From assembly GCA_009914755.4 (NCBI GenBank), contig CP068257.2, positions 20,800,001 to 20,864,000 on the forward strand: DNA of 64,000 nucleotides, given 5' to 3'. A program made the position numbers and the translations under genes. The notes under the pieces were generated by a model. It searched no databases. It saw only the letters and a program-made list of their open reading frames with translations, and was not told the origin of the DNA. Positions 13,365 to 16,458 of the stretch are shown here, in pieces (the stretch's first letter is position 1; every line of letters starts with the position of its first letter). The stretch is from the human T2T-CHM13v2.0 reference genome, Homo sapiens.

Positions 13365-13368
13365 AGAG

Positions 13369-13421
<53 letters not shown>

Positions 13422-13500
13422 TATATAGAGAGTGTATATATATATAATATGTATAATTTTTCTATATCTGGATTTTTTCTAACATATATATGTATATATA
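13365..13500. repeat. (TG)7(TA)n compound microsatellite / TA-rich tract
   Basis: gagtgtgtgtgtgtgtatatatatatatatatatatatatatatatatag... It directly abuts the outer edge of the inverted-repeat left arm. Confidence 0.9.
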
Positions 13501-13948
13501 TTAGAGTACCATTAGTTTCAGCTGTGTCTTGTAACCTCTTCAGAGTCTATTGGGTTCAATGTCCCCAGAGAGTAAATTTATAGTCTACTGGCAAAGGGAG
13601 AAGAACCCATTTATCAGATTGAATGTATGATAGTTGGTATCATGGATCTAATCTTTGTTTAGACAAATTTCATATGGTTTCTCCTGTGTAGCTTCATAGG
13701 CACCGCACAATTTTAGAGATATTTGGGTCATCTATAATAATTCCCAAGACATTCTGAGAATCTCAGCCTTATTTTTGGTTTCTGATTTCCCACTATGTCT
13801 GTTTATGTCTTGTTTCTTTTGTCCCTCTGCTTTCCTGTTTCCAAAGCCTGGTTTGTCTTCTCTGCTCTCATTGTCTTCATCATTTTGATCTATTTATTGT
13901 TTGAAACCACTATTTTCATGTAAGCATACTTTTTAAAAAACAGTACAT
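13499..13948 (+). repeat. Left arm of a large inverted repeat (about 450 bp)
   Basis: 13511-13930 matches the reverse complement of 16021-16445 with about 9 mismatches in about 425 bp, all of them transitions. Similarity fades at attagagt on the outer side and catgtaag.atactttt on the inner side. Confidence 0.88.
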
Positions 13949-14040
13949 ATATATGTATATATATACACACATATATACAACAGTACATATATCTATATAT
14001 ATAGAGAGAGAAACAGATTATAGATATAGGTATGGATATA
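13949..14040. repeat. TA/CA-rich microsatellite flanking the inner edge of the left arm
   Basis: tacatatatatgtatatatatacacacatatatacaacagtacatatatctatatatatagagagag. Confidence 0.8.
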
Positions 14041-15017
14041 TACAAAGAGATTTATTATGAGGGATCAGCTCACACAGATAGATGGATGAAAAGTCCCACA
14101 AACTTCCATCTGTAAGCCAGAGGTCCAAGACAACCAGTGGTGTAGGCCCAATCCAAGTCTAAAGATATGAGAATTAAGGAAGTCAGTGGAGTAAGTCCAA
14201 GTCTGAGCCTCAAGGCTTGAGAACTAGAAGCTCCAATCTTTGCTAGCAGAACAAGATAGATTTCTCAGCTCAAACACAGAGAGAGAACTCTCTTTTCCCC
14301 CGTCTTTTGGTTCTATTCTGGCCTTCAAAGGATTGAATGGCGCTCACTCACACAGGTAAGCATTGTTTTCTTTACTCATTCTACCAATGTAAATGCTTAT
14401 CTTTTCTGGAAACAGCTTCACAAAAACACTCAGAAATAATGATTTACCAGCTCTCTGAGTATCCCTTAGCCCAGACAAGTTGGCACATTAAATTAACCAT
14501 CATACCAATAAAAACAAATTTTTGTAGATTTCATTTCATAATCATCTAAAATTTCACCCACTTTTCTCTATTTCACAAGTTAATCCAAATAACCAAAATC
14601 ATTTGTCTGGATTATGATAATTGCAGTTATTACTGGTTTCCCTAAATGAACCATGCTTCTCCTAGCCCCACATTATGAATATTTATTGAGTAAAAATGTA
14701 TTCTAATCATTCTTGTGCTTTTTATACTAAGAGGGCTTCCAACCACTTTAAATAAATAATTTCCAAAATAATCTATTACTTGGCTATGGTTTTATATAAT
14801 GATGTTCCCATGTAACTTCCCAACATGTTTTCTCGTGAGAAAATATGGATTGCAATCCCTAGCCAGGCTTTACATACTATTTTAAAAATTCTTTCCATAG
14901 TTTTATTTTGGCTAAATCTAATTTGTCATTTAAGTAGTTGCTTAAATGTGACTTTATAAATAAATCATTTAATGACCACTAAGATTGATTGAGTAGCCAG
15001 AGTAGATGGTCTCATAG

Positions 15018-15578
15018 TGTGATGGTTAATATTGAATAACAACTTGATTGGATTGAAGGATGCAAAGTATTGTTCCTGGGTGTGTCTCTGAGGGCGTTGC
15101 CAAAGGAGATTAACTTTTGAGACAATGGACTGGGAGAGGCAGACCCACCCTCAATCTGGGTGGGCACCATCTAATCAGCTGCCAGAGTGGCTAGAATAAA
15201 GCAGGTGTGGAATAAAGAATGTGGAAGGACTAGCCTGGCTAAGTCTTCCAGCCTTCATCTTTCTCCCATGCTGGATGCTTTCTGCCCTCCAACATGACAC
15301 TCCAAGTTCTTCAGCTTTTAGACTCTTGGACTTTACACCAGTGGTTTGCCAGGTGCTCTCGGGCCTTTGGCCACAGACTGAAGGCTGCACTGTCGGCTTC
15401 CCTACTCTTGAGGTTTTGGGACTCATACTGGCTTCCTTGCTCTTCAGCTTGCAGATGGCCTATTGTGGGATTTCTTCTTGTGGTTGTGTGAGTCATTACT
15501 CTTTAATAAACTCTTTTTCAATAGATACATCAATCTTATTAGTTCTATCCCTCTAGAGAACCTCGATTAATACACATA
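15018..15578 (+). mobile_element. Solo LTR of MaLR (ERVL-MaLR) type, MLT1-like; lies in the spacer between the inverted-repeat arms
   Basis: Contains ...gtgggcaccatctaatcagctg...cttcatctttctcccatgctggatgctttctgccctccaacatgacactccaagttcttcagc...gcttgcagatggcctattgtgggat...AATAAActcttttt...ttctatccctctagagaacc, the typical MaLR LTR terminal motif family. Family name is recalled, not searched. Confidence 0.55.
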
Positions 15579-15995
15579 GCATGCTGCACTTTACATTTTA
15601 TAAAACATGTAACGCACTCCATAACCTATTTGACTGTCACCACACTAGAGTGTAAGCCCTAGGACAGAAGGAATGATATATTTTGTACACGAGTGCATTT
15701 CAAACATCTTATTAATGCATACTACATACAAGAGGACTACATGATGAATTAGTATACTTTATCTTGTAATTCACTTGATTTTGGAAGATGGGCAAAATTC
15801 AATTGATGTTAATCCTCCCATTAAATTAATAACTGTCCTTTTTGGTAAGATATATTATTTATCCCATAAAAATCTTCATTTGTTGCATGCTTTGAAGACC
15901 TTAGAACAAAGTAATTTATCATAGTTTAAAAAAATTGGTAGAACACTATAGGAGTAAGTAGAGGGGCATTAATTAGACTTTCTGGAATGAATACA

Positions 15996-16458
15996 TCAGT
16001 TTAGGGCTGTTTCATTAAAAGTATACTTACATGAAAATAGTGGTTTCAAACAATAAATAGATCAAAATGATGAAGACAATGAGAGCAGAGAAGACAAACC
16101 AGGCTTTGGAAACAGGAAAGCAGAGGGATAAAAGAAACAAGACATAAACAGACATAGTGGGAAATCAGAAACCAAAAATAAGGCTGAGATTCTCAGAATG
16201 TCTTGGGAATTATTACAGATGACCCAAATATCTCTAAAATTGTGCGGTGCCTATGAAGCTGCACAGGAGAAATCATATGAAATCTGTCTAAACAAAGATT
16301 AGATCCATGATACCAACTATCATACATTCAATCTGATAAATGGGTTCTTCTCCCTTTGCCAGTAGACTATAAATTTACTTTCTGGGGACATTGAACCCGA
16401 TAGACTCTGAAGAGGTTGCAAGACACAGCTGAAACTAATTGCACTCTAATCATGGGAA
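15996..16458 (-). repeat. Right arm of the large inverted repeat (reverse complement of 13499-13948)
   Basis: See the left arm. About 98% identity; the spacer between arms is about 2.06 kb. Confidence 0.88.

What the first reader, a model, noticed from the sequence alone, without database searches (positions are those of the whole stretch)
13365..16458. About 450-bp inverted duplication at ~98% identity with a 2.06-kb spacer; left arm wedged between TA microsatellites
13499-13948 is the near-perfect reverse complement of 15996-16458. I count about 9 mismatches in about 425 aligned bp, every one a transition. One is a CpG in the right arm (atcggg) that reads TpG in the left (attggg). Neither the arms nor their ends look like any transposon family I recognise: there is no TSD, no terminal-inverted-repeat logic and no poly(A). 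The left arm is bounded on both sides by TA-rich dinucleotide repeats, at 13365-13500 and 13949-14040. The right arm sits in unique sequence. The spacer carries an MLT1-like solo LTR. This looks like a lineage-specific inverted segmental micro-duplication. I would guess the left copy inserted into a (TA)n tract, which is cruciform-prone and break-prone. Two percent divergence would put it at a few million years old, unless gene conversion between the arms has reset the clock. A structure like this can extrude as a hairpin or cruciform. It can also mediate inversion of the 2-kb spacer by non-allelic homologous recombination (NAHR). It is the only feature here that known repeat families do not explain.
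Basis: seen in the sequence. Interest (0 to 1): 0.62.

Follow-up and report, generated by a model that had tools for sequence, protein, structure and literature searches.

The report
Local inverted copy inserted into TA repeat
A 444-base stretch of primate non-coding DNA was copied, flipped and pasted about 2 kb away into a break-prone TA repeat roughly 10 million years ago; it is a clean example of a known kind of DNA-repair scar, not a new kind of element.

Summary
Window 13500-13943 is the ungapped reverse complement of 16007-16450: 430/444 identical (96.8%), with a 2,063-nt spacer. It is the most similar repeat pair in the 64-kb window and has no third copy there. Some details need correction. 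There are 14 mismatches (11 transitions, 3 transversions), and six of them crowd within 20 nt of the two ends. The spacer holds two old MaLR-like LTR remnants, not one. The left arm is therefore the derived copy. It sits inside a hairpin-prone (TG)n(TA)n...(TA)n(CA)n tract and has no poly(A), no polyadenylation signal and no terminal inverted repeats. The most likely origin is a DNA-templated local event at a stalled fork or break in the TA tract (MMBIR/FoSTeS-type template switch, or capture of a nearby fragment). Interior divergence of about 2% suggests roughly 8-16 My, older than "a few My". Cruciform extrusion across a 2-kb spacer is unlikely. NAHR inversion of the spacer is possible but could not be tested. 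No comparative or Dfam data were reachable. Known kind, low interest.

The parts
13500..13943 (+). Left arm: the derived, inserted copy (444 nt), reverse complement of the right arm
   Evidence: 430/444 identity, ungapped. It is bracketed by TA-rich low-complexity DNA and by an exact 18-nt direct repeat.
16007..16450 (-). Right arm: the presumed source copy, in non-repeated sequence
   Evidence: It has no flanking direct repeat; the longest words shared by its 40-nt flanks are 5-mers that are not at the boundaries. Its flanks have no other copy in the window.
13944..16006 (.). Spacer of 2,063 nt between the arms
   Evidence: It contains much older repeat remnants, so the arms are far younger than the spacer's content.
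13482..13499 (+). Left copy of the 18-nt flanking direct repeat ACATATATATGTATATAT (TSD-like)
   Evidence: only two exact copies in 64 kb; it is the longest word shared by the two flanks (the next is 12 nt), and a first-order Markov null gives about 5e-5. That null ignores higher-order repeats in the tract.
13945..13962 (+). Right copy of the 18-nt flanking direct repeat, starting 1 nt after the arm's last matching base
13365..13499 (.). Left part of the target: compound (GA)3(TG)7(TA)18... microsatellite
   Evidence: a pure (TA)18 run lies at 13383-13418.
13944..14040 (.). Right part of the target: TA-rich tract with (TA)5(CA)3 and AACAG motifs
   Evidence: TATATATATACACACA at 13956-13971 is the exact reverse complement of 13377-13392, so the target is a quasi-palindrome. 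The reconstructed empty site folds at -26.8 kcal/mol (DNA parameters), z = -4.6.
13939..13952 (+). Right junction motif AACAGTACATATAT, repeated at 13979-13992
   Evidence: these are its only two copies in the window. Either AACAG is native target sequence, giving a 5-nt microhomology with the source end GAAACAG, or a later 40-nt tandem duplication copied the junction.
14030..14520 (-). Old MaLR/MLT1-like LTR remnant in the spacer
   Evidence: its reverse complement aligns locally to 15000-15590 with score 30, against a shuffle mean of 11.3 (sd 1.4). The family name rests on my memory of the MLT1 consensus and was not tested against a library.
15000..15590 (+). Second old MaLR/MLT1-like LTR remnant, in the opposite orientation
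   Evidence: with the same caveat about the family name.

Best explanation
The right arm (16007-16450) is native sequence. The left arm (13500-13943) is a copy of it, made directly from DNA, and placed in inverted orientation 2.06-2.5 kb away inside a hairpin-prone compound (TG)n(TA)n...(TA)n(CA)n microsatellite.

Proposed sequence of events (inferred):
1. A replication fork stalled, or a break formed, in the TA tract.
2. The free 3' end annealed by a few bases of microhomology to nearby single-stranded DNA of the opposite strand.
3. It copied about 444 nt.
4. It returned to the original template (MMBIR/FoSTeS-type template switch).
5. Returning 18 nt upstream of the departure point, or filling in a staggered break, would leave the 18-nt flanking direct repeat.
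6. Error-prone synthesis or imperfect annealing near the switch points would explain the crowding of mismatches at both ends.

The product is a neutral mutational scar, about 8-16 My old if there has been no gene conversion between the arms. It now forms a 444-bp, 97% inverted repeat around a 2-kb segment.

Shown directly: the anatomy, the polarity (left arm derived), the absence of retrotransposition and transposon hallmarks, and the structure-prone target. Inferred: the enzymology and the date.
For: - The identity and extent of the arms are established, and the window holds no third copy.
- Only the left arm is bracketed by an exact direct repeat and by low-complexity DNA on both sides.
- Removing 13500-13962 joins the flanks into one continuous TA-rich quasi-palindrome that folds well below its shuffles.
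- Junctions show short microhomology: AT on the left; AACAG or a single extra T on the right.
- There is no poly(A) or poly(T) at either end and no AATAAA near either end.
- Six of the 14 mismatches lie within 20 nt of the two ends (permutation P about 6e-4, post hoc).
- Proximity argues for a local DNA-level mechanism. By my arithmetic, a source within 3 kb of a random genomic insertion site has a prior of about 2e-6.
- The literature describes an inverted copy of a nearby template flanked by microhomology as the MMBIR templated-insertion signature (PMC8421209, PMC2621351).
- AT/TA repeats form structures that impede replication and are cut by nucleases (PMC12972899).
- A hairpin-forming palindrome at Xq27.1 is a recurrent acceptor of copied insertions with 1-2 bp microhomology (PMC6489244).
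Against: - No outgroup or population sequence could be obtained, so the empty site is a reconstruction, not an observation.
- The MMB-TI signature as defined in PMC8421209 uses templates within 100 bp and read-length insertions. Here the template is about 2.1-2.5 kb away and the insert is 444 nt.
- Left-junction microhomology is only 2 nt and lies inside a TA tract, where it is nearly guaranteed.
- The 18-mer may be a pre-existing tandem motif of the microsatellite rather than a product of the event. A 2-mismatch third copy lies at 13985-14002, and AACAGT recurs 40 nt downstream.
- The end-clustering test is post hoc, and alignment ends may include chance matches.
- Recent work argues that many short insertions near breaks are ligated fragments rather than MMBIR products (PMC12807874).
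- No Dfam/RepeatMasker check of the arm was possible.
Confidence: 0.7

Rival explanations
1. Fragment capture. A DNA fragment (single- or double-stranded) released from the neighbourhood of a break, or made there by extra synthesis, was ligated by end joining into a staggered double-strand break in the TA tract. Fill-in of 18-nt overhangs produced the flanking repeat. No continuous template-switching polymerase was involved.
For: - Short insertions (median 184 bp) mapping within 10 kb of breaks, joined with microhomology or non-templated bases, are attributed to breakage-replication/fusion rather than MMBIR in PMC12807874.
- There may be one non-templated T at the right junction.
- An 18-nt flanking repeat fits a staggered break.
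- DNA capture at breaks is established (reviewed in PMC5110952).
Against: - The donor is intact and nothing here shows a second break near 16007-16450.
- Sequence alone cannot separate this from MMBIR.
- Crowding of mismatches at the insert ends fits error-prone synthesis somewhat better than ligation of a pre-made fragment.
Confidence: 0.17
2. RNA-mediated templated insertion. An unspliced local transcript covering 16007-16450 was reverse-transcribed at a nick or break in the TA tract, either by L1 ORF2p acting in trans (class 1 TSIP-like) or by endonuclease-independent patching (class 2 TSIP).
For: - An 18-nt flanking repeat lies within the usual L1 TSD range (my knowledge), and class 1 TSIPs are defined partly by a TSD of at least 5 bp (PMC5110952).
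- TA-rich DNA is broadly similar to L1 endonuclease targets.
- The insert size is close to the reported experimental templated-insertion sizes (73-414 bp, PMC5110952).
Against: - There is no poly(A) tail and no AATAAA near either end.
- The sites before the repeat (TCTA/AC on one strand, GTAT/AT on the other) match the TTTT/A consensus poorly.
- The insert keeps intron-like unspliced sequence.
- An RNA route gives no reason for landing 2 kb from the source (prior about 2e-6, my arithmetic).
Confidence: 0.05
3. An older inverted duplication whose arms are kept similar by gene conversion. The 2-3% divergence would then understate its age.
For: Mismatches are uneven: there is only one in the 190 nt between positions 236 and 425 of the arm.
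Against: - The 18-nt flanking repeats, which arm-to-arm conversion does not touch, are still 18/18 identical. By my arithmetic, that caps divergence at about 15% with 95% confidence.
- The longest perfect tract is only 103 nt.
- The unevenness comes mostly from crowding at the ends.
Confidence: 0.06
4. Two independent insertions of one young interspersed repeat that happen to lie 2 kb apart in opposite orientation, or an assembly artefact.
For: No repeat library could be consulted, so a family match is not formally excluded.
Against: - There is no third copy in a window holding at least 15 Alus and several L1 pieces.
- The arm does not match the Alus or L1s of the window.
- The right arm has no TSD.
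- Neither arm has a poly(A), an LTR-like direct partner or terminal inverted repeats.
- By my knowledge, families young enough to give 97% identity in apes are AluY, L1PA2-3, SVA and LTR5, and none resembles a 36% GC, 444-nt unit.
- An artefactual inverted chimera would be essentially 100% identical and adjacent, not 3% diverged with a transition bias.
Confidence: 0.02

Closest known systems
MMBIR/FoSTeS templated insertions (MMB-TI; PMC8421209, PMC2621351)
   Same: The inserted sequence is an inverted copy of a template on the same chromosome close by. The donor is retained. There is short microhomology at the junctions. The event sits at a site expected to stall forks.
   Different: The published MMB-TI search signature uses templates within 100 bp and inserts of tens of bases. 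Here the template is 2.06-2.5 kb away and the insert is 444 nt, with an 18-nt flanking direct repeat.
Templated sequence insertion polymorphisms, classes 1 and 2 (PMC5110952)
   Same: It is a non-TE genomic segment of a few hundred bases, copied into a new site with the donor left intact. The flanking repeat resembles class 1. The lack of poly(A) and the microhomology resemble class 2.
   Different: It fits neither class cleanly: it has a TSD-like repeat but no poly(A), no polyadenylation signal and no clear L1 site. TSIP donors are described as distant and probably RNA-derived, whereas this donor is 2 kb away and the insert is unspliced. Whether it is fixed or polymorphic here is unknown.
Insertions into hairpin-forming palindromes such as the 180-bp Xq27.1 palindrome (PMC6489244), and fragile AT/TA repeats such as Flex1 (PMC12972899)
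   Same: A structure-prone AT-rich quasi-palindrome acts as the acceptor of a copied segment, with 1-2 bp junction homology.
   Different: The Xq27.1 events insert tens to hundreds of kb from other loci and cause disease. This one is a small local copy in apparently non-coding DNA. The longest pure (TA) run today is 18 units, shorter than the (AT)34 studied experimentally.
Inverted repeats that mediate NAHR inversions (PMC6748972, PMC3961182, bioRxiv 10.1101/2021.12.20.472354)
   Same: Two arms more than 90% identical in inverted orientation flank a unique segment. Inverted Alu pairs of about 300 bp are reported at inversion breakpoints.
   Different: The arms (444 bp) are shorter than the smallest IR (654 bp) in the 24 validated NAHR inversions. 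The longest perfect tract is 103 nt. No orientation polymorphism could be examined.

Membership tests
L1-mediated retrocopy / class 1 TSIP | Target-site duplication of at least 5 bp flanking the insert | tested here: inconclusive
   An exact 18-nt direct repeat flanks the left arm, but it may be a pre-existing tandem motif of the microsatellite.
L1-mediated retrocopy / class 1 TSIP | Non-templated poly(A) tail of 10-40 A at the 3' end, with AATAAA 10-30 nt upstream | tested here: not met
   The ends read ...TTTTTAAAAAACAG|T and, on the other strand...GGTACTCTAAT|. There is no A or T run longer than 6 and no AATAAA near either end.
L1-mediated retrocopy / class 1 TSIP | Insertion at a 5'-TTTT/A-3' L1 endonuclease site | tested here: not met
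   The sites preceding the repeat are TCTA/AC (plus sense) or GTAT/AT (minus sense), read. Each matches the consensus at about 3 of 6 positions.
Class 2 TSIP / break repair patch | No TSD; microhomology, microdeletion or non-templated bases at the junctions; donor retained | tested here: inconclusive
   The donor is retained. Microhomology is AT on the left and AACAG or an extra T on the right. The 18-nt flanking repeat conflicts with 'no TSD' unless it pre-existed.
MMBIR templated insertion (MMB-TI) | Insert is the inverted copy of a nearby template | tested here: met
   The distance is 2,063 nt between the arms, larger than the 100-bp search radius used in PMC8421209.
MMBIR templated insertion (MMB-TI) | Microhomology at both switch points | tested here: inconclusive
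   Left: 2 nt within a TA tract, which is uninformative. Right: 5 nt, but only if AACAG is native target sequence.
DNA transposon / MITE with long terminal inverted repeats | TSD flanking the whole unit (13500-16450), and internal sequence no older than the TIRs | tested here: not met
   The outer flanks are ...GTATATAT and CATGGGAA..., with no shared word. The spacer carries two highly diverged MaLR-like remnants, far older than the 97% identical arms.
LTR retroelement (arms as LTRs) or solo LTRs | Direct orientation of the two LTRs; TG...CA termini with a 4-6 bp TSD | tested here: not met
   The arms are inverted. Homology in the left copy starts at ATTAGAG without the TG that precedes it in the right copy. 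The right arm has no TSD.
L1 twin-priming inversion | Both inverted segments are L1 sequence within one L1 insertion | tested here: not met
   The arm has no similarity to the L1 copies of the window. The segments are duplicates of each other, not contiguous parts of one element.
Segmental duplication (conventional definition, my knowledge: at least 1 kb and at least 90% identity) | Length of at least 1 kb | tested here: not met
   444 nt. Homology does not extend further even with sensitive settings.
Cruciform-forming palindrome | Arms separated by a very short spacer, so that extrusion from duplex DNA is feasible | tested here: not met
   The spacer is 2,063 nt. PMC10164571: going from 12 to 20 bp already gives about a 40-fold drop. 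The arms do pair in silico when the whole locus is single-stranded (437/444 pairs).
NAHR inversion substrate | Inverted repeats more than 90% identical flanking the segment; both orientations observed in populations or species | not testable with these tools
   The first half is met. Orientation polymorphism needs pangenome or ape assemblies, which no tool here reaches.
Structured RNA gene (Rfam) | Match to a curated covariance model at gathering score | tested here: not met
   There were no hits at gathering score in the window. Only sub-threshold low-complexity mir-297/mir-3149 hits fell in the TA tracts.

The most novel reading that the evidence does not exclude
The TA tract may be a recurrent acceptor site that works through a distinct pathway: staggered cleavage of an extruded TA hairpin or cruciform, followed by patching. 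This would leave long (18-25 nt) flanking duplications without poly(A). The hint is that a second exact direct repeat, of 25 nt, brackets a 1,026-nt segment ending 8 nt from the same microsatellite. Alternatively, or in addition, the 444-bp arms may now make the 2-kb spacer a recurrently flipping segment, or a long-hairpin RNA source, in apes.
Probability: 0.08. Interest if true: 0.5.

Novelty: new member of a known kind. Interest (0 to 1): 0.2.

Why it matters
On its own it matters little. It is a single, apparently neutral repair scar in AT-rich, gene-poor primate DNA.

It has some value as a well-preserved natural example. Both junctions, the intact donor and the structure-prone target are all readable within 3 kb. 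It also falls between published categories: the insert is larger and the template farther away than in MMB-TI searches, and it has a TSD-like flank but no poly(A), unlike either TSIP class.

If ape and monkey orthologues confirmed the empty site, it would give a dated, junction-resolved case of how TA microsatellites seed new inverted repeats, which can in turn become substrates for inversion.

Tried and rejected
**Searches for related sequence elsewhere (all empty)**
- Ten ORFs from the arms, junctions and spacer were looked up exactly in the 15-billion-protein collection. None was present, so the look-up of encoding contigs could not retrieve human or ape contigs.
- Two arm k-mers (25 nt and 20 nt, identical in both arms) were scanned in metagenome contigs and one in viral contigs. 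There were 0 hits, so no contaminating host contigs were available.
- The prokaryote, phage, plasmid and E. coli collections are irrelevant to primate DNA and were not searched.

**Tests of whether the arm is a gene**
- Rfam at gathering score gave nothing. At E<=1 it gave only low-complexity sub-threshold hits.
- Pfam on the arm ORFs gave nothing above cut-off.
- The 42-codon ORF shared by both arms (13795-13923 and 16027-16155) was considered as a possible small gene. I rejected this. The strand is T-rich, so hydrophobic ORFs are expected; 27 ORFs of at least 35 aa occur in 3.4 kb; and the single synonymous difference carries no weight.
- I ran no further search on this ORF.

**Other origins considered and rejected**
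- Helitron: wrong termini, a flanking repeat is present, and no recent Helitrons are known in primates (my knowledge).
- LTR, TIR transposon, twin priming and assembly artefact: see the membership table.
- ADAR- or APOBEC-type directional bias among the mismatches: none seen. A/G and T/C differences go both ways.
- Extension of homology beyond the arms, and additional nearby templated pieces: only the 25-mer at 12281/13332 turned up.
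Full report
**1. The observation**

The window is primate DNA. It carries at least 15 Alu elements, L1 fragments and a long L1 at about 51.4-56.4 kb, and is about 35% GC.

The repeat finder reports one inverted pair in 12.5-17.5 kb: 13500-13943 against 16007-16450, 444 nt, with 2,063 nt between the arms. blastn gives the same boundaries: 430/444 identities and no gaps. In a whole-window self-comparison this is the most similar pair; Alu and L1 pairs are 79-92% identical. A sensitive search with the arm finds no third copy in 64 kb.

The 14 differences are 11 transitions and 3 transversions. The longest perfect run is 103 nt. TA-rich tracts lie on both sides of the left arm. 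The core observation therefore stands. The arm length, the mismatch count and 'all transitions' need correcting.

**2. Which arm is the copy**

The right arm sits in sequence that has no other copy in the window. Its two 40-nt flanks share nothing longer than 5-mers, and those are not at the boundaries.

The left arm has low-complexity DNA on both sides. It is also bracketed by an exact 18-mer, ACATATATATGTATATAT, at 13482-13499 (touching the arm) and at 13945-13962 (one base after the last matching base). These are the only two exact copies in the window. The 18-mer is the longest word shared by the two flanks (the next is 12 nt), and a first-order Markov model of the flanks gives about 5e-5 for such a placement.

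Deleting 13500-13962 joins the flanks into a single compound tract. Its outer parts, (TG)7(TA)18 at 13371-13418 and (TA)5(CA)3 at 13956-13971, are reverse complements of each other (16-nt exact match). With DNA parameters this reconstructed site folds at -26.8 kcal/mol, 4.6 sd below mononucleotide shuffles.

The left arm is therefore the derived insertion, and its target was a hairpin-prone AT-rich quasi-palindrome.

**3. Is the 18-mer a target-site duplication?**

There are two readings, and I could not separate them.

- **(a) True duplication.** It was created by the event, either by a staggered break filled in or by a polymerase returning 18 nt upstream of where it left.
- **(b) Pre-existing motif.** The microsatellite already contained tandem copies of the motif. 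A third copy with two mismatches lies at 13985-14002. The 14-mer AACAGTACATATAT occurs exactly twice in the window: at the right junction (13939) and 40 nt downstream (13979). If AACAG at the junction is native, it is a 5-nt microhomology with the donor's end (GAAACAG|CCC), and there is no true TSD.

Under reading (a), the downstream copy would be a later 40-nt tandem duplication. The Markov P value overstates its significance, because that null ignores higher-order repeats in the tract.

**4. What the insertion is not**

- There is no poly(A) or poly(T) at either end, and no AATAAA near either end. The sites in front of the repeat match the L1 endonuclease consensus poorly. It therefore fails the class 1 TSIP / L1-in-trans definition (PMC5110952).
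- It keeps sequence that looks like an unspliced acceptor and donor, so it is not a processed RNA copy.
- The pair cannot be the terminal inverted repeats of a transposon. There is no TSD around the whole unit. The spacer also holds two strongly diverged MaLR-like LTR remnants in opposite orientation (local alignment score 30 against 11.3 +/- 1.4 for shuffles; the family name is from my memory of the MLT1 consensus). These are far older than arms that are 97% identical.
- The arms are inverted, so they are not LTRs of one provirus.
- They do not match the window's L1s, so this is not twin priming.
- Rfam and Pfam give nothing.
- The shared 42-codon ORF is what a T-rich strand produces by chance.
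- An assembly chimera would not show 3% transition-biased divergence.

**5. How it most likely arose**

A donor 2 kb from the insertion site is very improbable for any route that picks targets genome-wide: about 2e-6 for a window of +/-3 kb in 3 Gb (my arithmetic). A local, DNA-templated process is therefore strongly favoured.

The published signature of MMBIR-type templated insertions is an inverted copy of a nearby template flanked by microhomology (PMC8421209; model in PMC2621351). AT/TA repeats form hairpins and cruciforms that impede replication and are cut by structure-selective nucleases (PMC12972899). A hairpin-forming palindrome at Xq27.1 repeatedly accepts copied insertions with 1-2 bp microhomology (PMC6489244).

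I therefore favour a stalled fork or break in the TA tract, priming on the opposite strand about 2-2.5 kb away, about 444 nt of synthesis, and return to the original template.

One additional observation fits error-prone synthesis or imperfect annealing at the switch points. Six of the 14 mismatches lie within 20 nt of the two ends, against 8 in the 404 interior bases (permutation P about 6e-4). This test is post hoc, and alignment ends can include chance matches.

The main rival is ligation of a nearby DNA fragment into a staggered break, as argued for short insertions near breaks in PMC12807874. Sequence alone cannot separate the two. An RNA route is a distant third.

**6. Age**

| Region used | Differences | Divergence | Age at 1.0-1.2e-9 per site per year |
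|---|---|---|---|
| Whole arm | 14/444 | K = 0.032 | 13-16 My |
| First 425 nt | 10/425 | K = 0.024 | 10-12 My |
| Interior (end zones excluded) | 8/404 | 2.0% | about 8-10 My (my arithmetic) |

Ages are from K/2mu. They double at the pedigree rate of 0.5e-9.

By my knowledge of ape genome divergences (human-gorilla about 1.6%, human-orangutan about 3.1-3.4%, human-macaque about 6%), this places the event near the great-ape stem or the African-ape ancestor, if the window is hominid. 'A few million years' is too young.

Gene conversion could hide greater age. However, the two 18-mers, which arm-to-arm conversion would not touch, are identical. That bounds divergence at roughly 15% or less.

**7. 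Consequences**

Across a 2,063-nt spacer, cruciform extrusion from duplex DNA is not expected. Widening a spacer from 12 to 20 bp already reduces Alu-IR recombination about 40-fold. Widely spaced, diverged repeats do interact once the region is single-stranded (PMC10164571). In silico, the arms pair (437/444) if the whole locus is single-stranded, which is trivial.

NAHR inversion of the spacer is possible. Inverted Alu pairs flank some human inversions (bioRxiv 10.1101/2021.12.20.472354). On the other hand, the validated NAHR set starts at 654-bp repeats (PMC6748972), and the longest perfect tract here is 103 nt. No tool here reaches pangenome data.

**8. What could not be done**

No repeat library, no primate assemblies and no population data were reachable. 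Attempts to pull host contigs from the public collections by exact ORF look-up and by k-mer scans found nothing. The empty site, the date and the 'not a known repeat family' statement therefore remain inferences.

**9. Verdict**

The inverted duplication is real, and its polarity and target are now well supported. It belongs to a known kind: a local inverted templated insertion at a structure-prone AT-rich repeat. It is somewhat larger and its template farther away than in typical catalogued cases, and it carries an ambiguous TSD-like flank. Interest is low (0.2).

The nearby 25-nt direct repeat (12281-12305 and 13332-13356) is the one loose end that could raise interest. It may mean that the same TA tract was hit twice, or that a single event involved several template switches.

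Noticed in passing
window 12281-12305 and 13332-13356: There is an exact 25-nt direct repeat, ATTGCCTGCATAACAAAAGTCTTTT, with copies 1,051 nt apart. Apart from the arms, it is the only exact repeat of at least 16 nt touching 11.5-18 kb that is neither TE-derived nor low-complexity. The second copy ends 8 nt before the same compound microsatellite. The 1,026 nt between the copies has no other copy in the window, no poly(A)/poly(T) at its edges and no terminal inverted repeats. It could be a TSD-like flank of a second insertion, or a 25-nt templated patch. It remains unexplained.
   Followed up: partly
window 14030-14520 (-) and 15000-15590 (+): The spacer contains two ancient MaLR/MLT1-like LTR remnants in opposite orientation. 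Their 3' ends align significantly (local score 30 against 11.3 +/- 1.4 for shuffles). The family name is from memory and was not checked against a library.
   Followed up: partly
window 13377-13392 and 13956-13971: The two TA-rich flanks of the left arm are reverse complements at their outer parts ((TG)n(TA)n against (TA)n(CA)n, a 16-nt exact inverted match). The pre-insertion tract was therefore itself a quasi-palindrome. The reconstructed site folds at -26.8 kcal/mol (z = -4.6).
   Followed up: yes
window 13500-13519 and 13924-13943 (the two ends of the left arm): Six of the 14 arm-to-arm mismatches, including all three transversions, lie within 20 nt of the insertion ends (permutation P about 6e-4, post hoc). 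The interior is about 2.0% diverged.
   Followed up: yes
window 13795-13923 (+) and 16027-16155 (-): An identical 42-codon ATG ORF (MSVYVLFLLSLCFPVSKAWFVFSALIVFIILIYLLFETTIFM) is present in both arms. The single nucleotide difference inside it is synonymous, and it ends at a GTAAG donor-like site. There is no Pfam match, and the exact sequence is not in the protein collection. It is probably a by-product of a T-rich strand.
   Followed up: partly
window 19128-19183: A second, longer pure (TA)28 microsatellite lies about 5 kb downstream. It was not examined for associated rearrangements.
   Followed up: no
window 8094-8717: There is a tandem array of roughly 60-100-nt period (self-matches 85-92% identical), giving long low-complexity ORFs on both strands (FLPSFLPS... 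and KEGRKEGR...). It is unrelated to the finding.
   Followed up: no
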